Shown here: piece by piece, positions 2,966-60,329 of the stretch
Layout of the letters: each line of letters opens with the position of its first letter
How positions within the stretch are numbered: position 1 is the stretch's first letter
Origin: Harriotta raleighana
Lineage: Eukaryota
Reading direction: 5' to 3'
DNA length: 64,000 nt
Assembly (NCBI GenBank): GCA_050575255.1
Contig: JBNZDD010013730.1
Coordinates: forward strand, 9,022,381 to 9,086,380
The notes under the pieces: model-generated
The model's database searches: none
Told to the model about the DNA's origin: nothing
The model's input: only the letters and a program-made list of their open reading frames with translations
Translations under genes and position numbers: made by a program

Positions 2966-3085
2966 CTGCTGCCCAGTGACAAGAAGGATAGCACCTTCTT
3001 TCCAATGCGCAACTTGTCTATAAATGTGATCTAAAATTAAAAGCTCACTCCAGCAGTTCTGAAGAAGCTTCATTTGGTCATCAAC
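2966..3085 (-). CDS. NR5A2: NR5A2 LBD exon, 120 nt: [40 protein letters not shown]
   Basis: Manual translation; acceptor ttcacAG|GTT, donor CAG|GTGAGT; phase 0/0 matches the upstream exon. Too short for the ORF track. Confidence 0.96.
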
Positions 3086-13060: not shown

Positions 13061-13385
13061 AATAATAATAATAATCCTTGCATTTGATATAGCGCTTTTC
13101 ATATCTTATCGACGTCCCAAAGCGCTTCACAGAATATACTGTAAAGTGAATTGACTGTATATTTCTGGGCACAATGCGGCAGCCAATTGCGCACAGCAGC
13201 GTCCCCACAAACAGTCATGGATTGAAATGACCAATTTTATTATTGTTGTATTTTTGGAGGGATTATTATTAGGCATGTGGAGTAAGGAAACTTGCCCAAG
13301 GTTTCGCCCTGATCTGCCGGGATTCGAACACAGGTCTCATGCTTATAAGACAAGTGCTCTAACCACTAAACCACAGGAGCTCCAC
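13061..13385 (-). mobile_element. Full-length tRNA-derived SINE (Deu-like core, L2-type tail)
   Basis: Pol III A box TGGTTTAGTGG and B box GTTCGAATCC on the minus strand; core ctgctgtgcgcaattggctgccgc; (ATT)n tail. Confidence 0.9.
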
Positions 13386-33542: not shown

Positions 33543-33724
33543 GTGGAGTCGTGTAGCTCAATGGTTAGAGCACTCCTCTTGCAAGTGAGAGACCTTGGTT
33601 CGATTCCAGGCAGGGCGAAACCTACTCATAAATATACAGTAAATTCACTTTACAGTATATTCTGTGGTGCTTTGAGACATTTAGAAGATGTGAAAAGCAA
33701 GGATTATTATTATTATTATTATTA
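33543..33724 (+). mobile_element. Internally deleted tRNA-SINE (head joined to tail)
   Basis: A box TAGCTCAATGG and B box GGTTCGATTCC, then directly aaatatacagt...gcaaggattattatt. Confidence 0.85.
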
Positions 33725-40502: not shown

Positions 40503-41198
<696 letters not shown>

Positions 41199-46538: not shown

Positions 46539-46680
46539 CTTCCAACTTCATTCCAACGCTCAGGCATTTCTGAAAGCGACAGTATGGACACCTTTTCCGC
46601 TGAGTTTTATCGATCTGACAGTTCTGGTTTTCTATACAAGTGTACCTTTTGTTATTTTGAACTGTGCGTTTGAAGAACCC
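46539..46680 (-). CDS. NR5A2: NR5A2 second zinc-finger exon, 142 nt: [47 protein letters not shown]
   Basis: Manual translation of the minus strand; acceptor ctcttttAG|GGG, donor GAAG|GTAAGC; phase 0 in, phase 1 out. Not shown in the ORF track. Confidence 0.97.
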
Positions 46681-47427
46681 CTAAAAGAGGAGGGNGGGGG
46701 GAGGAGGGGGGGGGGGGGGGGGGGGAGGCAGGGAAAAAAATGCTCTATGTGAGTGATGAGAAAGCAATGATTTCCTTCGCACCCACACCCCCCACAGCCC
46801 ACCCCCCAAAGATACCTAAAGCAATGAAGGGCTTTAATAACTGCAGACTTAATCAGTTTTGCGAGGCATCGACGCTTGTGAAACGACTGTCAAAATTGAT
46901 GAAATAATCCTCACACGTGTATGTGTGTGTGTGGGTGTGTGTGGCTGTGAAAAAGAGAGCGTCATTTGAGTTTTGTAAATCAGAATTGTAACACGGTCAC
47001 AGATTTATCTGGACTCAGTTCAGATGCTGGGAATTTTACTGTGTGATCAATAAAGCCGACTGAAGCAAATGCGACTGAAAAATAAACGCTTCACAAGTTG
47101 GTCAACGCTTCACAAGCAAGTTTGTCAATTGGATTGGTTTTTTTAGAGAGGGGGTTTNNNNNNNNNNNNNNNNNNNNNNNNNNNNNNNNNNNNNNNNNNN
47201 NNNNNNNGGGGGGGGGGGGGGGGGGTAGCAGGTGGAAATCATTCTACAATTTTAAACGTATTCTTTCTTTTCAGACCAGTTTGACGACAGTGAGACAGAC
47301 ATACACATACACACACACACACACACATACATACACACACACATGGGAGAAAGGGCTGACTGACTGGGAGTCCAAAATCCTAATGCAAGCAATATCAATA
47401 TGCTCAAATATCTAGTAAGTGTGTGTG

Positions 47428-47459
<32 letters not shown>

Positions 47460-47728
47460 CGGCGAGGCGAGGGGTTCATTTAAATTTGTCATTAGAAAAA
47501 AAACTATTTAAAAAAAAACGCATTGATCAAATCTGTCCTTATTTCACGAAAGATTNNNNNNNNNNNNNNNNNNNNNNNNNNNNNNNNNNNNNNNNNNNNN
47601 NNNNNNNNNNNNNNNNNNNNNNNNNNNNNNNNNNNNNNNNNNNNNNNNNNNNNNNNNNNNNNNNNNNNNNNNNNNNNNNNNNNNNNNNNNNNNNNNNNNN
47701 NNNNNNNNNNNNNNNNNNNNNNNNNNAG

Positions 47729-47956
<228 letters not shown>

Positions 47957-49073
47957 TCAGAAGCACTTTGGGAAATAGTCAATTGTAATTACACAGTGTC
48001 GGGGTGTAAATCAGTCCCGCTATGAATACACCATCGATCGAGGGGACAAATCCAGGATTTATTAATTTCCCACTGAGACACCAACAACCTGGGAGCATCT
48101 GAAACAGCAGCAAAATGATGGGAGGGGAGATGGGTGGGTGGGGAGGGAGGGGGGTGGAGTGTGGGTGGGGGGAGGTTTGCTCAGACCGAGGCAAATCCTA
48201 ACCATTAAAAGGATTAATGATCAGCGAATAATAAGAGCTGTGTAGTATTAACGCAGATTAGTTATCATATAAGACAGCGGAGGAAGGTGGGGGTGGTCAG
48301 AGATGGGGGTGGGGAGGGGGGGACACACACAAATGAAATCGTGCATTGTATATTAAAGTTAACGCACCTGATGAAACCGACGGATTCAANCCTGAGGCGT
48401 TTGATGGGAGTTCTGTTCAATATATAATTCCTAATCATCATAATAAGTACATTGCTTCCTCTATGTATAATTGCCTTCATCTCCTCAAGATACATTTATT
48501 CCACCCCCCAATTTTTTTTGGGGGGGGAAACAAACCGTACTTATAAAACAGGCTTCATCGAATCGCTCTAATTTCACTANCCACTAAGCTCTCGTTCGAT
48601 TTCAGAAACTCGGGCAAGCGGGGGCGATGGGTTTTCTCTGCAACTCAGACTGACTTCAGGAGCTTGGCGTCAGCGAATAGATCACTGCAATAAAATGCAA
48701 AGAACTTTTTGTTAAAAAAAAGTAATTTTGAGGGGGTGGGGGATAAANNNNNNNNNNNNNNNNNNNNNNNNNNNNNNNNNNNNNNNNNNNNNNNNNNNNN
48801 NNNNNNNNNNNNNNNNNNNNNNNNNNNNNNNNNNNNNNNNNNNNNNNNNNNNNNNNNNNNNNNNNNNNNNNNNNNNNNNNNNNNNNNNNNNNNNNNNNNN
48901 NNAGAGATAAACGTACAAAATTCTGAACAATTGCAAACGTGTTCTGTCTCCCCCCCCCCCCCCCNNNNNNNNNNNNNNNNNNNNNNNNNNNNNNNNNNNN
49001 NNNNNNNNNNNNNNNNNNNNNNNNNNNNNNNNNNNNNNNNNNNNNNNNNNNNNNNNNNNNNNNNNNNNCCCCC

Positions 49074-49104
<31 letters not shown>

Positions 49105-52100
49105 ATTTTGTTAGCTTGTGGGACTGCGCATTGCGCGCACTGGGCAAGGGACAGTGTGGGATTCTGATACTTTCTGACACATCGATTAGAAATTGAAGGG
49201 ATGCGCATTTATTTTCTCCCCCATCCCCTCCCTTCAGAATCGGTTGCATTTTTTGTCACATCTCTAGAGGAGGTTTGGGGAGGGGGTGGTGGTGTGTGTG
49301 GGGGGGGAGGGTGAAAAAACAGCCTGGAATTTGCTAAAGTATTAAAAGAAAACGATCACGTTATCAGTCCTCTCTGCTCTCTCAGTTCTAGCGCTTTTAA
49401 TTCTCTGCTATTGAACTGCCCAGCACTTTTAAGCATGATCATAATTCGATATGCCATAGAAATCTTGGCCATTCATTCATTCATTCATTCCTGTGAGATT
49501 TCCAAAGTTATATTCCCACGTTACGCTTTAGTTGTCGGAAGAGTTAACTCATAAAATTGCGCAAAGACAGTAAAAAAAAACAAATTTTGTTTTACTCTAG
49601 GTATCGTTTATACAATGAAATGTGCTGAGACGGAAAACAAAAACAGACTGATCAAGGTGTATTATTTACTAAGTATAACTCGTCTCTTGCCTTTCTATCC
49701 CTGGGAGTAACGTGAGCAGAGATTTGGTCATTCGCATCTTGGTTTGGTAAGGTGAGATTCAGTGACTGATCACTTGTTTTTTTTGTGTTGGCGGTGAAAG
49801 TGGGGAGAGGGGGGGAAGGGAGAGAGGGGGGCAAAACAATTTCAGCAAAAGTTGCCAGATCCCCTCACCTTTACGTCTCTCTCTCTCTCTCCCTGCCCAC
49901 TGAAAAGCTGCAGTCAATGGTAGTAGCAGCATTAAAGCGCCCACAGGGTTGCAGGAACAGGTATAAAGCATACAGTCTTGGATTGGGAGAGGGAGGGAGG
50001 GGGCAATATTTATTCTATGGTCTATTTTGCAATACAGCATTGCCCACAATTGTCTGGCATTTAGTTCATTGGCGGATTGGCTCCTGGTACTTTAACTTAC
50101 AAGGGGAAAATTGAGGGGAGAACTGGGTGGGGGAGGGGTGGGGAGAAGAAGTGGGGAGGGAATCGAGCTAGATTTTAACGAGTGCCTACAACTAGAGAAT
50201 CTGTACGGCCTACAAGGTGGAACTGTTCCTTGTCCTGTCAAGGAAATTCAAAATCTTCACCCTCTACCATTAGAATCTGGAATATCTCGTTTCCTGAGGC
50301 GTTTGATGGGAGTTCTGTTCAATATATAATTCCTAATCATCATAATAAGTACATTGCTTCCTCTATGTATAATTGCCTTCATCTCCTCAAGATACATTTA
50401 TTCCACCCCCCAATTTTTTTTGGGGGGGNNNNNNNNNNNNNNNNNNNNNNNNNNNNNNNNNNNNNNNNNNNNNNNNNNNNNNNNNNNNNNNNNNNNNNNN
50501 NNNNNNNNNNNNNNNNNNNNNNNNNNNNNNNNNNNNNNNNNNNNNNNNNNNNNNNNNNNNNNNNNNNNNNNNNNNNNNNNNNNNNNNNNNNNNNNNNNNN
50601 NNNNNNNNNNNNNNNNNNNNNNNNNNNNNNNNNNNNNNNNNNNNNNNNNNNNNNNNNNNNNNNNNNNNNNNNNNNNNNNNNNNNNNNNNNNNNNNNNNNN
50701 NNNNNNNNNNNNNNNNNNNNNNNNNNNNNNNNNNNNNNNNNNNNNNNNNNNNNNNNNNNNNNNNNNNNNNNNNNNNNNNNNNNNNNNNNNNNNNNNNNNN
50801 NNNNNNNNNNNNNNNNNNNNNNNNNNNNNNNNNNNNNNNNNNNNNNNNNNNNNNNNNNNNNNNNNNNNNNNNNNNNNNNNNNNNNNNNNNNNNNNNNNNN
50901 NNNNNNNNNNNNNNNNNNNNNNNNNNNNNNNNNNNNNNNNNNNNNNNNNNNNNNNNNNNNNNNNNACAACAAAAAAACAATTTCACACACACACAAAAAA
51001 AATCCCTGACGTTGGATTCTTACGAAACCGAAGAGCTGAACAAAGGCAAACGGATTGTAGGACAGGTGACGCCTTTCATCCAGTTAGACTGCTTTGGTGT
51101 CTGCCTTCAGCTTGTTTTTTATATATATATATATATATATTTGGGGACACAAATGTGTAAGAGAACTCCCAAGTATTTATCAAGTAACTTCAGTCTAATA
51201 GTTTTCTCCACAGAGCAGCCACACACACTCTTGTCTACAACACAAGGCAATTCCTCTGGCTTTACATGCGATGCTAACTCCGCTCCCACTCCCACTGTTT
51301 GTTCCCTTGTTCTATTTCCAGAACAATTTGAACGGGCTATTTCTGTATCTTGTTATTTTTATGGGTATTGTAACCGTTCTGAATTAAAGTTGTCGGGATT
51401 AACAGACACGTGCGCTTACTGGTGCTGCAGTAAGAACAGAAATAAACAGCTGTTTTCTAAAGTCTTTCACTGGGGGGGGGGGGGGGGGGGGGNTGATTTT
51501 TTGCTGGACTCGATTATCCGCGAACAGTCACTCAAAACGGTGCATCTATGTGCGTTTCGCGTAAAACGAGTCGATAAGATACCCGACTGTTTTAACCCAC
51601 AGGTGTGGCTTTTTAGTATTTTAGTTGACATTAAACCAGTCTGATCTGATCTGTCAACTCGAAATAGCTAAAGTGCAATTCAGACCCGGCGCAAGTGTAT
51701 GCCAAACGCCAAAATAAATGCTCTCAAGGCATTTAATTAATAACTGCAGCTGAAACTCGTCGTGCATAATATCCGAAACACCGCGCGTGAATAAGATTCA
51801 ACTTGGGATTCGAGTCGAAAAAGCGTCCTGAACAGTGGGAGAAAACATCCCAAAGCGGGGTGTCCAAACGCGGCGGGTAACGTAACATCGAGTTAAAATG
51901 CGCAGTGTCACGGCACTTCGACAGCTCATTACTCAAGGCATTTTGGGCGAGTGAAACATTTCGTAGCGAAAAGTAAAAATAAATGTTAAAATGCAAAAGT
52001 GGAGTGCATTTTGACACGGTGCAAGGAATGCAACTCGATGGGATTCCACTTGTTACCTTTCGTACAATAAATACTCTTCAGATTATTATTCCACCAGCCC

Positions 52101-53662
52101 CCCCACCCCCCACCTCACCTCCCCACCACCACCCACTCCTCCTCCTACGAGAGATAGAGAAAAAAAGAGCCGATGGGGGTTGCAATATCCATCCATTCAA
52201 TAGTGCAGTTCACAATGTAACACACCGACCGGATAATTAGTCACAGCATTTCACGTGGGTGGGGGAGCTAATCGCTAGAAATACCAATCGCTAGATACCT
52301 CTTATCTGTACGAAACTCGAGAAACATTGACTCGGCAATGTGGCCCCTTCTCCCTCTGCTTTTTGACGCAGTGTGGACGGAGTTTTTAAAAGTAAGAAAA
52401 ATAATAATGATTTCAGTACTTTTCCAAAATTTGCAACCTCTACATTTGGAGCGTCTGGAGGGGAGGAGGAGAGGGAGGGGTGGGGTGGGGGAGGGGTGGT
52501 GGGGTGGGGTGGGGGGGGGGGGCTTGACTTTTAGTTTAATTTTAAACGTATTTGAAGTTTGTATTTTAGAAGGGGGGAAAAAAAAACTTTGCTTTAAGTC
52601 AGATTCATTCGATATTTGTATTCTCTCAACAAAGTTACAGATGCGAAGCTGGTTGTACTCTGATTGGTGGGTCTGTCTCCACAATTAGACGTGGAGTGGA
52701 TTTTTTTCTGAGCAGGGAAATAAAACACTTAAAACTCGATTTTTGAACACAAGGAAAGCTGCCCATTTCCCCCCCAAGAAACAGGCCAGTGTGAACTCTC
52801 TTTACAGTCGCTTTTGCTGTCAACAAATTCGAAGCACCTTTGGAAAAAATCAAAACGTCTGCACTTTCTGTAGTTACGTCAGAACATCTCTCTCTGTCTC
52901 TCTATCTATCTGCTGTTGTTGTGAAATGGGACATGTAAGTTTATCCGCTTCTCAGTAAACACAGACACAACCAACCATCCGCCAACTCACAACCCACGAA
53001 GCAGGATTCTCTTCCTACTGTAAAACATTTGCTAAAGGACACCCCCCCCCCCCAGCCCAATGCCTTTAAATGCTTCATTGAAAGCATTTAAATGAAGCAT
53101 TTAGGCTGCAGCCTTTGCAAACTGTTTGGTCTGGAGTTTAGCTTAGCTGTCACTTTGATTTCCTGATGATCCCGCATATATACACACATATATATATGAG
53201 ATATATAACATTCTCCCAACACGAACCGATTATAAGATTGCAATACAGAGGGTTGCTCTCCAGGCTTATCGCAGCTGTAGGTAAAAATCGCCGCACATTA
53301 TTGTCTTCCAATCGCCACACGTCAAACAATGTGAATTGCCTGTATCATTGCATACCAGTCGCTAAATCGGGTCCCAAGTCACACTGATTGTCCGAATAGC
53401 CCATTATATACCCCATTAGCATTGCACGCCCATGTTCAAAGTAAGAAAAACAGAAGACACGCCGGTACTGGATAAGTTGACACACATCTTAAAACTGTCC
53501 CAACACGCAGTTTGTCACCGGGACAGACATACACACACACACAGACATAGACACATACACACACATACACTGTCGGCACTATCGGTATGTGGCAGAAGAG
53601 CTCCCGTTAAAATAAAGTCAATCAATCCGGATCATTCAACACAATGCGCTCACTTCGCTTAC

Positions 53663-53772
53663 CGCGCATCGTATCCGGCATCTGATCCCGTTCCCCGTAC
53701 GATCGAGCTACAAACACCGATGTATTCTGCCTTTGCCTGGGGCAGCATGACACTTAAATCTTATTCAAAACG
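53663..53772 (-). other. NR5A2: Homolog of NR5A2 exon 2 (A/B domain 'MLPKVE..ARSHGEQGQMP'), frameshifted as assembled; probably 5'UTR/uORF
   Basis: GTCATGCTGCCC start at 53748 gives MLPQAKAEYIG, and the +1 frame gives VARSYGERDQMPDTMR. Donor G|GTAAGC at 53662; acceptor ctcccAG at 53773-53774 with a CTAAC branch point about 33 nt upstream. Confidence 0.75.
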
Positions 53773-54092
53773 CTGGGAGTAGGGTGGAGGGTGTAGGGTG
53801 GATAGGTTAGGGGTGGGGGGTGGGAGGGGGGGGGGGCCTGGGAGGGCGACACTTCATCCAGAGGCAAAGCAGAAAGAGAGGACCTGAACCGGGGTTAACA
53901 GCCAGCTGGGGGCGGGGGGAGGGGGCGGGGGGGAGAGGGGGTGGGAGGTGTTGGTGGAGCAATATTGACTTAAAAGAGAAGCTGCAAAGCTGGATCGAGC
54001 ATCAAAGCACACACACACATACTCACACTCACTCACACACGTACAGAGATCGACAAGGGTTTTTCTGTGTTAGTACATGATTTTTTTTTTAC

Positions 54093-54335
54093 CTACGATG
54101 TGGACTCGTCATTTCCCTGGGTCAGGCCGGGCACACGGAGTGATTCTGGTGTTGTGTGGACTGCACGGTGTTGTGTGGGAAGTTCGAACCTCCCCATATC
54201 CTCCTCACTCAACCCGCGCTTTCCCAGCCCTTCATCAACTGGCGACTTGGGAGCGAACCGTCCAATGGACTGTCTCCCAGAGTCTATCAGCACTTTAGGT
54301 GAACCAGTGAGAAAGCATTGACAACCAACCAGCTC
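54093..54335 (-). other. Candidate non-coding upstream exon of NR5A2 (5' boundary unknown)
   Basis: Complex CpG-containing block between low-complexity tracts, ending in a donor TAG|GTAAAA at 54092, which would give a 320-nt intron to the exon-2 acceptor. Confidence 0.35.
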
Positions 54336-55794
54336 CTCCCTTCCTCCCCCCCCCCCACCCTCTCTCTCTCTCTCCTCTCCCCCCNNNNNNNNNNNNNNNN
54401 NNNNNNNNNNNNNNNNNNNCCCCCCCCCCCCCCCCCCCCCATCCCTCGCCCCCCCACCACCCTCCCCACACACCCCCCCCCGCACCCCTCCCCATCACAT
54501 ACACACACTCACACCAACACCCCCCCCAAACACACCGTCTCCGAAACTATTAACATTCCTCCTGGGATAGGAGATCACAAAATCAATTCCTAATAGATAA
54601 TACTGACTGCCTCCCAACCCCCCCACCCCCCCCCCCCCCCCACCACCTCTCTCCCTCCACTATACGCGATTCTATTGATCACAGGTCAGTGGATAACGCT
54701 GCGATCTGTGGGAACAAATACATCTCTGAAGAAGCATGTTGTTGTTGTTGTTTTTGTTGTTGTTGTTGCTTGACTCGTAGCGACCGGGTGCTAAAGTGAA
54801 TAGGTTGCTAACATCTGGAGTCACTACAAAACGGAACATCACTGTGTCTAAATCTACGTGAAAGCCTCACCGGAGCTCTCAAACGCGCAGTTGTCGTTCT
54901 CTATGTTTGTATGTATGTATGTAGGTGTGTGTGTGTGTGTGTGTGTACAGCATATAGAGATGGAATGAAGATCTCGCGTTGGGAGAGGCAGCAGCAGTTA
55001 CTGAACAGGTATGGGAGCAAAGTGTAGGTGTTGAACATCCCAGATTGGCTGGAACATGTCAACGCTGTGTTCTTAGGAACCCGTTGTGAGGCGAGGGTAG
55101 AGCAAAGGAATAGTTCCCCATCCCTCCCCTCCAGGTGTCTCCCTGAGTATTGCAATAACTTGGGACCAAAGCAAAAACGATCTGGAATCTCCAAAACTCA
55201 GACGTGTGTTTTTGTTATACACACACACACACACACAGAGGCACTTTTTGATGTACCGGCATTTCTGAAACGTGACACGATATTAGCCTAAAATATGATA
55301 AGTGATGACACACAGAAAGCCAAAGGATTCTAGTTGCACCCAAATATCACCCAAGTGTTGTTGACTCTGAAATCCAATGCAAAATACAAACGGATTCGCG
55401 CGTCTTGGGGGGGGGTTTCCTTCGACTGGAAAGCTTGCCGCCGAAGTTAATCATTTTATTCAAGTGTAAACTACAAGCTGAGCTGCCTTGCCCCAAAGAG
55501 GAGCAGAAAAAATTCCACCTCATCTTTTTCACACCTGGTAACTCGCGGGCGTTTTTGTCATAAAGCCCTGGCTCTCAGGGCAATATTTATAAGATTTCTC
55601 TATCACAATCTCCCCACCCACCCCCCACCCCCCCCATACACACACACACACATACAGACCACCCCAAATAATAAAAGCTCAATCAATGGTCCTGTAGCGA
55701 TCACTTGAATTCACCCAACTCAAGTTATGAATTAGGATTTTGAGTAGAAAGTTCCCATTTCATTTAAGAGATGCTTCTGTCAGTATTCACTTTG

Positions 55795-55892
55795 AAACTA
55801 ACTAACTCACTCACTCAACTCACTCACTCAACTCACTCACTCACTCAAATCAATCACTCACTCACCTAACTAAACTAACTAAACTAACTAAC
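55795..55892. repeat. Compound (ACTA)/(ACTC) tetranucleotide microsatellite
   Basis: Directly visible. Confidence 0.85.
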
Positions 55893-56069
55893 GCCGCAAC
55901 CTTGACCCAGAGAAAGATCTTTCCCTGAGCTAGAGCAGTTGTGTGTGATGTACCTTTTACATCTCTGGGCCAGGCACCTTCATCTCCCGAGTTAAGAGCA
56001 AAACAAGAGACAGCGTGTTCGGATGCGTCCTCTTCTCAAACAGTCGCCGGTCGGTGTAGTTAGTTATTG

Positions 56070-56200
56070 GGTGTTGCTCGCAAATATTAAGCAATACCGT
56101 CTCGATTCCACCGGCAATGTCATCCCCCTTCTCCTCGACGTCCCTGGTTCTTGACAACAACGGGCTGTTTGTGGCAATTAACGTTTGATATTAACCTCTA

Positions 56201-56232
<32 letters not shown>

Positions 56233-56415
56233 GTGTGTGTGTGTGTATTCGATAAGAACGATTCATATTATTGAAGGGAGCTCNGGTGTTGCTCGCAAAT
56301 ATTAAGCAATACCGTCTCGATTCCACCGGCAATGTCATCCCCCTTCTCCTCGACGTCCCTGGTTCTTGACAACAACGGGCTGTTTGTGGCAATTAACGTT
56401 TGATATTAACCTCTA

Positions 56416-56448
<33 letters not shown>

Positions 56449-56494
56449 TGTGTGTGTATTCGATAAGAACGATTCATATTATTGAAGGGAGCTC
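56070..56494. repeat. ~213-bp direct duplication around a single N (probable allelic assembly artefact)
   Basis: 56070-56283 is repeated at 56285-56494; the copies differ only in the GT tract. Confidence 0.85.
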
Positions 56495-58283
56495 AGTGCA
56501 CTCCATATTCCAGGCAGATCACCTCATGTGAAGCTCTAGGATCCTGTGTAACACTAGCCCGGGCGAGGTGACTGACCCATTTTAAACTCACATTGTCCCA
56601 CTGACAAGAGACGGGTCATTAATACTGCCAGGCTATTCTTTCCTCAGCTACTGACAGCCAGCTCGCATACTTGGGCAGATCTCTTTCTCTATCTCTCTCT
56701 CTCTGTCTGTCTCCCCCCACCCCCTCTCTCTCTCTCTCTCTGTGTCTCTCTCCCTCTCTGTATCCGCCAAAACATTACGTCCAACTCTCGGGAATCCGCC
56801 AACAGATCCGGTGGGCAGCCAAGAATAAAACATCCAGGCAAAATTTAATTATTGCTATCTACTCGTCCATTTTGCTAGGCTTTGCATCGCGTTATTTGTA
56901 TTTTACTTATCAGCTCTTTCTCTCTCTCTCTCTCTCTCTCTCCGGGTATTATATAAATATATACACACACACCACACACAATGCCAAGGCACGACACCGA
57001 AGAGTAACTAGACAGACGATAACAAGCTATTTTGAGAGGGATCAGAGTTAACTGACTCGAGATTCGACACCTTCGTGTATAATTGCATCGCAGGGCAAAT
57101 CTGTACTGTTACGACACAAGTAAGCAATGCGACTTGTATAGTTATCTGTCAGCCCCCTCTGACTATCTAACTATCTATCCGTCTATCNNNNNNNNNNNNN
57201 NNNNNNNNNNNNNNNNNNNNNNNNNNNNNNNNNNNNNNNNNNNNNNNNNNNNNNNNNNNNNNNNNNNNNNNNNNNNNNNNNNNNNNNNNNNNNNNNNNNN
57301 NNNNNNNNNNNNNNNNNNNNNNNNNNNNNNNNNNNNNNNNTCAACAATACCTGGAGAAAAAATATATTTGTGTAATGAAATTGTATACAATGCTCATTCA
57401 TTACATTAAGACAGTTCTGGCATCATCTACAGACACAAGCCAGTGATAAGATACTGTAGTCATCTCACTTGAATTCATTTTGATGTGGTGTTTTTTGATA
57501 CACCCACAAACACACACCTCATGGGGTTATTTATACCGACTTCATTGTCATTTTCGGGCTCAGTCTGACAATGCTCGGCTATTTATCTTAATTGTTTTTT
57601 TGGGGGGGGTGGGGGGGGAGTGTGTGGGAAAAACATCTATTTGTCTCCTTTGATCCTTTTGCAAAGTGAACGACTTGGGAGCTATTTGTGTCCAGTTATT
57701 AACAGACACAACACAACACAACGCTCTCAGGTTATAACATTGCTCGGCTCGTAAGACTTCAGCACATTGCAGGATTAAATCATTCTTCTCACTTTGGCTC
57801 ACCACAGCAGATTATTCTATACAGTCGCCAATGAACATTTACTGTTTCCCGAGTACAGTATTCATACAGTATTTTTCTTAAGTAAAAAAAAATACATTTG
57901 TTTTCTTTTTTTAAATAAAAACAATCCTTTTAAAACTCAGGGTGAACGCTGCACTGGACGAAAGAAAAACCATTGAAAGTGGACGAGACGATTTCAGTGA
58001 AAGAATACATATTTTGAACTTGATCCAATACTCTTTTTAACTGGCTTTGCACAAGCACGTGCATTTTAAAACTCACCGATGCATTTCCAGGAACATTAAT
58101 AATCTGAAATAAATTATCTTCAATATCACCCAAGGCATAAGACCACCCCCTCCCTCCCCACCCCCACCAGAGTTAGGTTTTCTGAGTCTGTCAAAGTTTA
58201 TGAAAACAATTCAAATTAGACTCTTCGAGAGAAAGTGTATCAGTTGGATATATAAAAACACAGGTTTTTCCTCCCCTAATGTC

Positions 58284-58615
58284 TAATAGTAATCCTTGCA
58301 TTTGATATAGTGCTTTTCAAGTCTTTTAGACGTCTCAAAGTACTTCGCAGAATGTACTTAAAGTGAACTGTGGGACAAACGCAGCAGCCAATTACACCCT
58401 ACAGTGTCCCACGAACAACAAAATTACATTTGTTTAGCGCCTTTCACATTGCGAGCACAAACAGTCATGGATTGAAATGACCAATTCATGAATTTTTTTG
58501 ACGGATTAGGCGTGTGGAGGAAGGAAACTTACCCAAGATTTCGCCCTGCCTGGAATCGAACCCAGGCCTCTTGTTTGTAAAGCAAGTGCTCTAACCACTG
58601 AGCAACAGGACTCCA
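58284..58615 (-). mobile_element. Full-length tRNA-SINE with short internal insert
   Basis: B box ggaatcgaaccc, head ctaaccactgagcaacaggactcc, standard tail. Confidence 0.85.
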
Positions 58616-60329
58616 GACAACTAAACAGTCGGAAGGTATGTTAATCTGTTCAACAGGACATTTATCTGTTTCACAATACAACCAACCACTAGTCGAGTCT
58701 CAGTAGCGTGGGTAACATACACTGGCTTGTGTGAAAGCAAGACTGTGTCTACAAATCCTTAGCTGGGCTCTTACCCTCAGGCTAGTCATCTTATATGAAC
58801 CCTCTTCACAGTTAATGCTCCAACTCTGACAGGTCTGTCCTCTGTAAAGGTGAATATATTGCCATTTATTGATTTGCATTTCCATTTTAATTCTTATGTC
58901 ACGGAGCCCTGTTCTATTGTTAAGTCACTTTTAAGTGAACTCGACTCAACTGCTCTTATTTTATACCTTGCCTCACCATCCGACAAGTCAGGAATGCTGA
59001 CATATCTACTCAAACTATCTGAAACATTTGTACTTCTGCTCTAGCAGATAGGAGATAGCAAGTCCCTTACTTTACCTTTATAACAATAGCGTATTTCCAA
59101 TTCATTAAAATGATCACTCTTGACATTTAACTGGAAACATTATAAATTCTTTAAGCAAGAGTTATTCTGGCAGTGTTTTATAACATTGTAATGACGGGTA
59201 CATTTTAATTGCTTATTTGTACAGGAATTCTCAGCTGGCTTTGTAGAAGTAATATTGACAAGTTAATAATAAACAAATGGACTCTAGTATTTAACAAAAG
59301 TACTGTAGCAAAACAGAGAAGGGGATGCGGAAACAAATCTGAAAATAAATTGTAATTATCTGTTGGTACCAACTAATGCATTTAAATTAGCTTCCTGAGA
59401 AAACAAACACATAGTACAAATTTTTAAAAATATATTTCTTAAATACCTGTTCAGTATAACTACTAAATTTTGCATGCTTTCTGAGTTGTGCTAGAATAAC
59501 ATAAGCCCCACTTACCAACATTTCTTAGACTATGATATATGGATTTCTGGTTGATACCAGAGAAAGGATATCAACCAGAATGCTGGCTACATGTGTACAA
59601 CATTGGATCCCACAGGTGCAAAACCTGTTTTCTTTATCGACCTTGGATGAAAACATAAAATAATAACCATTGCAGAAACTGAAATAAAATATCATTCAAG
59701 ATTTTGGGAGGATACATGTGGTTGTTTGACTGGACTCTGATCTGGTTCCAGTATTTAGTGGCCTGCTAAACTGTGTGCACCATCTCAGGTTGGCCATTAA
59801 TCAGAAGGATGGGAAATTGGAGGTTGGTGATAGGTCTTGCAGAGTCATGTGTTTTTGTGTAGTTTGATAAGAAGACCCTGTTATAAACTGACAGTGAGAG
59901 AGATAAGAAGTCTTTGCAGATAATGGCAGAGAAATGATTAACCTGAGGTGCAGGAGTGAGTGAGATGGTTGTAGGCCTCTAACTCAATAGAAGAGTTTTA
60001 GGTGCAGAGAGAGGGTCAAGAGATCATACTCAGTGGATATGTACCTGACTTAACCCAACTGTAGGCATCTGCAAACTAAGGTCCTGTGACCTAATGTTTT
60101 CATGTCAGTACTACTGAGTCAGTGAATCATAGATTGGGGATAGTTTGATTAGTTTAAATACTCTTGTCATCCATCATGTAACAACTTAACCCTATACTTG
60201 CAGTAACCTTTACTACTACAGTTTTGCAAAGTGATCAGATGAGTTTGGTGTGTAATTTTTGTTATGGTCTGTTTCTTGGTTTGTTTTGCGAAAGGAGCGA
60301 GGGAACAATATGTGTTGCTTAATTGTTGC

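What the first reader, a model, noticed from the sequence alone, without database searches (positions are those of the whole stretch)
53663..53772. NR5A2 exon 2 homolog is frameshifted: a coding exon possibly turned into a uORF-bearing 5'UTR
Seen: ATG at 53748 reads MLPQAKAEYIG. About 4 extra nt (GTTT) then shift the frame, and the recognisable second half VARSYGERDQMPDTMR is in the +1 frame. ATG-to-donor is 86 nt. Recalled: bony vertebrates have MLPKVE(T/S)E.LGLARSHGEQG.MP.NMQ in one frame (82 nt, phase 1). Splice signals are intact. Spliced to exon 3 as assembled, neither frame joins the zinc-finger frame. The first ATG gives an overlapping out-of-frame ORF ending in the 142-nt exon, and the ATGCCG frame stops (TAA) 4 nt before ATGGAG. 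Inference: this lineage may have lost the NR5A2 A/B domain while keeping the exon as a translational control element.
Basis: partly seen in the sequence, partly recalled or inferred. Interest (0 to 1): 0.7.

Follow-up and report, generated by a model that had tools for sequence, protein, structure and literature searches.

The report
Chimaera LRH-1 lost its N-terminal tail
In this chimaera fish, the two exons that encode the front tail of the liver and gut regulator LRH-1 (NR5A2) in sharks and mammals are broken while the rest of the gene is intact, so the protein likely starts at its DNA-binding domain like its sister protein SF-1; whether the leftover start codons are used to damp its output is untested.

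Summary
The 4 extra bases in the NR5A2 exon-2 homologue are in an independent contig and in raw reads. None of 18 exon-2-containing splice models joins an upstream ATG to the zinc-finger frame. The loss is wider than reported: an exon-1 remnant at 59516-59590 (rank 1 of 525,900 positions) has an in-frame stop, the front of exon 2 has a C-rich insert and stops in all frames, and exon 3 is 16 nt longer. The 468-codon body is intact, with 2 differences from Callorhinchus milii. The longest C. milii RefSeq model also starts at the DNA-binding domain, and its upstream residues have drifted differently. Best reading (0.7): the A/B domain is lost, probably in all chimaeras, and the old exons persist as leader relics. 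The leftover ATGs would lower output from exon-2 mRNAs, but nothing here shows they are selected for that (0.15). Weak points: no RNA evidence, and only one read over the exon-3 C-run, where a one-base error would reopen a frame. A new variant of a known process; interest moderate.

The parts
59516..59592 (-). Remnant of NR5A2 exon 1: homologous frame interrupted by TGA at 59573-59571; ATG at 59592 followed directly by TAG; intact phase-1 donor at 59515; a non-homologous ATG at 59521 is in frame with the zinc finger if exon 2 is skipped
   Evidence: (rank 1 of 525,900 with the combined profile; 5 and 2 with shark-only and bony-only profiles; first of 28,411 sites with a phase-1 GT in all three). 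Not covered by reads.
53749..53883 (-). Decayed 5' part of exon 2: 135 nt before the ATG against 53 inferred for sharks; C-rich insert about 53835-53775; stops in all three frames near 53770-53754
   Evidence: (weak match at 53861)
53663..53748 (-). Exon-2 segment from the old start codon to the donor (86 nt), two homologous pieces in different frames; further ATGs at 53681 and 53669; K and E of the MLPKxE motif changed to Q and K
53712..53715 (-). The 4 extra bases (placement approximate)
47762..47896 (-). Exon 3: 33 nt before the ATG against 17 inferred for sharks (C-rich extension); QFKM changed to QCKT; main start ATG at 47863 in strong context (A at -3, G at +4); first zinc finger
46539..46680 (-). 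Exon 4 (142 nt), second zinc finger; holds the stop (46632) of the overlapping upstream ORF, 93 nt before the exon's end
40506..41152 (-). Exon 5 (647 nt): FTZ-F1 box, hinge, start of ligand-binding domain
2966..3085 (-). Exon 6 (120 nt), ligand-binding domain; exons 7 and 8 lie outside the window (L019, L021)
47001..58000 (.). CpG-enriched region spanning exons 2-3 (observed/expected 0.30-1.02 per kb, 10 of 11 bins at 0.46 or more, against 0.32 for 1-40000); a likely promoter region
   Evidence: promoter role inferred

Best explanation
This is an intact NR5A2 (LRH-1) gene whose two upstream exons and the front of exon 3 no longer encode the N-terminal A/B domain, so the protein likely starts at the ATG just before the zinc finger and the old exons likely persist as untranslated leader relics. 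Shown: the lesions, the intact 468-codon body, the read support for the exon-2 insertion. Inferred mechanism: selection on the A/B domain relaxed, probably before this lineage split from Callorhinchus; stops, a frameshift and C-rich insertions then accumulated. Productive mRNAs would come mostly from skipping exon 2 (which adds at most 13 unrelated residues) or from a promoter in the CpG-rich region. Exon-2-containing mRNAs would be translated poorly, by leaky scanning past three ATGs, and could be NMD targets. That damping is read here as a by-product, not a selected function.
For: Three separate lesions in three exons. Exon-2 insertion in two samples. Exons 1 and 2 each have one match in the assembly, so no intact copy was found elsewhere. 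Body intact, 466 of 468 identical to C. milii, whereas the 4 residues before the start differ at 4 of 4 positions (Fisher p 7e-9, post hoc); those four are identical in horn shark, devil ray, paddlefish and tinamou, and the Met changed here is kept in 136 of 136 non-chimaera proteins scored. Position 6 of the exon-2 block is E or D in 90 of 90 bony-vertebrate and 15 of 15 elasmobranch blocks, K here. The C. milii RefSeq isoform X1 is 469 aa and starts at the DNA-binding domain; three UniRef models carry three different patched N-termini. No holocephalan protein appeared among the 4 hits to the shark exon-2 peptide (only 22 candidates, weak). In mouse an isoform lacking 61 N-terminal residues acted like full length and no specific function was ascribed to the domain (PMC3594184, passages); the commonest human isoform skips exon 2 (PMC13643060, passages).
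Against: No RNA was seen, so the splice models are predictions. The exon-3 C-run rests on one read; one more C there would put ATG 53748 in frame. The exon-1 stop is not read-checked. Truncated RefSeq models also occur where they are probably artefacts (Sorex araneus 469 aa while Sorex fumeus and Suncus have the N-terminus), so the C. milii evidence is soft and no shared mutation is shown. The exon-2 remnant is still 12-17 of 27 identical to orthologues and both donors keep GTAAG. A review calls AF-1 crucial to LRH-1 function (PMC13643060). The mouse short isoform probably still starts at the exon-2 ATG (inferred from lengths), so it is not a full model of this loss.
Confidence: 0.7

Rival explanations
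1. Selected exaptation: the A/B domain was lost and exon 2 is kept because its ATGs act as uORFs that lower NR5A2 translation and trigger NMD, making exon-2 inclusion a dosage switch.
For: All three old ATGs survive; the first has a purine at -3 and its ORF overlaps the main start and stops 93 nt before a junction; the other two stop 4 nt before the main ATG. Donors of exons 1 and 2 match consensus at 7 and 6 of 9 positions (true coding donors 7-9 of 9). The region is CpG-rich.
Against: The ATGs are inherited Met codons and need no selection to explain. The lengthened exon-3 start that sets the uORF frames appears absent in C. milii, whose models keep the ancestral number of residues, so this layout is not shared. 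No expression or ribosome data.
Confidence: 0.15
2. Compensated frameshift or cryptic splicing: an N-terminal extension is still made from ATG 53748, either because the exon-3 C-run is mis-assembled by one or two bases or because a weak site is used (acceptor at 47955, donors at 53715 or 53700). The extension would be partly scrambled.
For: Only one read covers the C-run. The AG at 47955 gives a formally open frame. Phase-0 GT and GC dinucleotides exist inside exon 2.
Against: The one read agrees with the assembly. The 47955 site ends in AAG and has another AG within 23 nt, unlike 5 of 5 true downstream acceptors; the internal GT donors match 4-5 of 9. Exon 1 is broken independently and invariant residues have changed.
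Confidence: 0.1
3. Assembly artefact or private allele: the species has a normal A/B domain.
For: The assembly is fragmented (13,732 contigs) with N runs nearby; exon 1 is unchecked; read depth is low.
Against: Two samples from two studies carry the insertion; restoring the ancestral frame needs errors in three exons; substitutions at invariant residues; C. milii models point the same way.
Confidence: 0.04

Closest known systems
Callorhinchus milii NR5A2, RefSeq XP_007885508.1 isoform X1 (P0122, 469 aa)
   Same: 466 of 468 residues identical; also starts at the DNA-binding domain
Shark and ray NR5A2 (Heterodontus, Scyliorhinus, Mustelus, Mobula, Hemitrygon; P0004, P0005, P0007, P0131, P0141)
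   Same: About 96% identical body (two tested); same exon order; exon-2-skipped and 'MMEY'-start isoforms annotated
   Different: Exons 1, 2 and 3 are open in one frame; skates have a diverged but open N-terminus (P0130)
Mammalian LRH-1 isoforms (human isoform 2 without exon 2; mouse pituitary variant 2 without 61 residues)
   Same: N-terminal shortening by splicing or promoter choice (PMC13643060, PMC3594184, passages)
   Different: There it is optional and the exons stay coding; here the loss is genomic and removes the minor SUMO site K44 (PMC4749390, passages; K44 maps to MLPK in 3 of 3 541-aa mammalian proteins)
NR5A1 / SF-1
   Same: Protein that starts just before the DNA-binding domain (architecture recalled; the paralogue L002 has its ATG 9 nt after an acceptor and no A/B match in 20 kb upstream)
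   Different: A separate gene on another contig; this gene is NR5A2 by sequence

Membership tests
NR5A2 orthologue | Best matches of the hinge and ligand-binding region are NR5A2 | tested here: met
   top hit C. milii NR5A2 at 99%; most of the 120 listed are named NR5A2, a few equid and pig entries are auto-named steroidogenic factor 1 or unnamed
NR5A2 orthologue | Intact DNA-binding domain, FTZ-F1 box, hinge and ligand-binding domain | tested here: met
   468 codons, no internal stop
NR5A2 orthologue | Distinct from NR5A1 and the third NR5A locus of the genome | tested here: met
   two other NR5A-like loci on other contigs; no tree was built
NR5A2 orthologue | Coding A/B domain from exons 1-2 | tested here: not met
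   0 of 18 exon-2 models in frame; exon 1 has a stop
Functional regulatory uORF | Upstream ATGs lie in a transcribed, spliced leader | tested here: inconclusive
   splice signals present; no RNA run was available to lay
Functional regulatory uORF | uORF is translated and lowers main-ORF output | not testable with these tools
   needs ribosome profiling or reporters
Functional regulatory uORF | Start, frame or stop conserved across related species | tested here: inconclusive
   no orthologous chimaera DNA; C. milii protein models suggest a different exon-3 start length
Pseudogene | Main reading frame disabled | tested here: not met

The most novel reading that the evidence does not exclude
All chimaeras converted the NR5A2 A/B exons into a regulatory leader: inclusion of the old exon 2 works as a poison-exon and uORF switch that sets LRH-1 dose by promoter or tissue, while the protein converged on the SF-1 layout and lost its K44 SUMO site. 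It would be a datable case of a coding exon turned into a translational brake in a vertebrate transcription factor.
Probability: 0.15. Interest if true: 0.65.

Novelty: new variant of a known kind. Interest (0 to 1): 0.42.

Why it matters
The LRH-1 A/B domain is conserved from sharks to humans, yet its function is unsettled: one paper ascribes none to it, a review calls it crucial. A lineage that lost it while keeping the rest almost unchanged is a natural deletion, and suggests the domain and its minor SUMO site are dispensable in at least one jawed vertebrate group. It also shows LRH-1 converging on the SF-1 layout. If the leftover ATGs prove functional, it is a traceable origin of uORF control. 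I found no report of it in the held library; most subscription papers are not searched, and the short C. milii model is already in RefSeq without comment that I could see.

Tried and rejected
No RNA holder listed in the run search; this is no evidence either way. Laying reads on exon 3 gave one read from 4 runs. A genome search with the shark N-terminus found nothing at E<=10; the remnants were found by local tblastn. A search for short chimaera protein fragments showed none named as a holocephalan among 120 listed of 421 (many rows unnamed). I considered that the gene is NR5A1, because of its start and an NR6A neighbour, and rejected it on sequence. One search used boundaries for exons 4-5 that were off and produced a false stop at 41140; corrected. 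The K count at position 4 of the exon-2 block (90 of 90) is circular, because blocks were picked by that motif, and is not used. The exon-1 profile length was chosen after seeing the hit. Promoter motifs near exon 1: NR5A-type site not above chance (4 seen, 3.2 expected); HNF1-like 5 seen, 1.45 expected, not interpretable without orthologues. Rfam found only tRNA-like hits, no miR-181. Two recalled papers on fish NR5A isoforms and evolution were not held. Earlier findings had nothing on this locus.

Full report
Gene identity. The minus strand holds NR5A2. The hinge exon's best hit is Callorhinchus milii NR5A2 at 99%, then shark and skate NR5A2 at 95-97%. Exons 3-8 give 468 codons with no internal stop and 2 differences from C. 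milii P0122, so the animal is most likely another holocephalan. The genome has two other NR5A-like loci on other contigs. The gene is alive.

The observation. The ATG at 53748 lies 86 nt from the donor at 53662, and shark and ray proteins match in two frames, 53754-53713 and 53711-53667. Bony vertebrates have 27 residues in this block, elasmobranchs 25; the remnant has the 27-residue length plus 4 nt. Of 4 runs laid, two cover the insertion: a 202-nt contig of X4 with no gap, and 4 reads of X5, all in the 99+ class with no indel listed. The tool lists read indels only from 3 reads, so a rare intact allele is not strictly excluded, but assembly error is unlikely. The exon-3 C-run has one agreeing read among 4 runs.

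(a) An exon-1 remnant ends at 59516 with a GTAAGT donor in phase 1. A 14-residue profile from 9 shark, ray, paddlefish, bird and mammal exon-1 peptides ranks it first of 525,900 positions in 264 kb; shark-only and bony-only profiles rank it 5th and 2nd, and first among the 28,411 positions with a phase-1 GT. Its homologous frame has TGA at 59573-59571 and no ATG after it. (b) The front of exon 2 probably starts at 53883, has about 82 extra, C-rich bases, and has stops in all three frames just before the ATG. (c) Exon 3 has 33 nt before the start ATG where shark isoforms imply 17, and QFKM reads QCKT. Removing either indel alone would not restore the homologous frame. Across 3 exon-2 acceptors, 2 donors and 3 exon-3 acceptors, 0 of 18 models give an in-frame extension; the 3 exon-2-skipping models do, from a non-homologous ATG at 59521, adding 3 to 13 unrelated residues. 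A formal rescue exists through a poor acceptor at 47955.

Relaxed constraint. The four residues before the start differ at 4 of 4 positions between this animal and C. milii, against 2 of 468 in the body (p 7e-9, post hoc), and are identical among horn shark, devil ray, paddlefish and tinamou. Each lineage changed two of the four, and different ones. The lost Met is kept in 136 of 136 non-chimaera proteins scored (4 C. milii rows left out; proteins not independent). The K and E of the MLPKxE motif are both changed. That K is K44 in 541-residue mammalian proteins, described as a minor SUMO site (PMC4749390, passages).

Other chimaeras. C. milii RefSeq isoform X1 is 469 aa and begins at the DNA-binding domain; in the listed sharks and rays X1 is the longest model, so this is probably the longest C. 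milii model. Three UniRef models have three different N-termini, one beginning MLPK. This fits a loss shared by chimaeras, but it is annotation, not DNA, and short models also arise by artefact (Sorex araneus). No shared mutation is shown.

Mechanism. Shown: lesions and intact body. Inferred: translation starts at 47863, which has a strong context. Messages that include exon 2 carry three upstream ATGs; the first opens an 89-codon overlapping frame that stops 93 nt before a junction, which by the usual 50-55 nt rule (recalled) would invite NMD, and the other two stop 4 nt before the main start. Such messages would give little protein. Exon-2 skipping is the commonest human form (PMC13643060, passages) and is annotated in sharks, and the region from exon 2 to exon 3 is CpG-rich, so productive routes are plausible. 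Mouse pituitary transcripts start just upstream of an internal coding exon, and the short protein acted like full length (PMC3594184, passages). I therefore favour relic leader exons (0.7) over a selected uORF switch (0.15), a compensated or cryptically spliced extension (0.1) and artefact (0.04). The surviving ATGs and donors do not separate the first two.

Novelty. Searches in the held library found no report: 223 papers with two of three terms; none of the 20 listed mentions nr5a2; 11 listed, none on this; 2, unrelated by listing; 0. Searches served for background. I read passages only, of PMC3594184, PMC4528200, PMC4749390, PMC13643060 and PMC4339804; no supplements. A survey of cartilaginous-fish nuclear receptors exists in a subscription journal (recalled, not seen) and might cover this. 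Loss of a domain by start-codon shift, with old coding exons left in the leader, is a known kind of event; this instance appears undescribed.

Verdict. Real and broader than reported; the loss is well supported, its regulatory use is not. Interest 0.42.

Noticed in passing
L029 4419-4505 (G000:C13730:9190799-9190885, minus) and L016 211-71 (minus): A second nuclear receptor lies about 75-110 kb upstream of NR5A2 exon 1 on the same strand; its zinc finger is closest to NR6A1/GCNF (PDB 5krb, E 8.5e-23, next best 8.5e-15). A similar gene lies about 95 kb upstream of the NR5A1-like locus (L032). So both NR5A loci seem to keep an NR6A neighbour, i.e. a second NR6A paralogue beside NR5A2 that mammals are not known to have (recalled). 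Completeness untested.
   Followed up: partly
L003 (G000:C13327:171022-174099): Third NR5A-like locus with a divergent zinc finger, possibly NR5A5-like (name recalled); introns are rich in simple repeats.
   Followed up: no
proteins P0130, P0008, P0147, P0151: Skate NR5A2 models have a diverged, shortened but open N-terminus (QFKM reads RSQM), a possible second case of relaxed constraint.
   Followed up: no
window 59638-59646 and 59933-59942 (minus): NR5A-type and HNF1-like motifs just upstream of the exon-1 remnant, which would fit a retained liver-type promoter; consensus recalled, the first not above chance.
   Followed up: partly
window 51001-52000: CpG observed/expected 1.02 inside intron 2, a candidate alternative promoter or first exon that would bypass the uORFs.
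   Followed up: no
window 58541-58612, 33547-33618, 13314-13376: tRNA-like Rfam hits, probably tRNA-derived SINE copies.
   Followed up: no
proteins P0002, P0005, P0006, P0132: Catshark, smooth-hound and Mobula NR5A2 models are 40-130 residues longer downstream of the DNA-binding domain than others, suggesting an extra exon or tail in some elasmobranchs.
   Followed up: no
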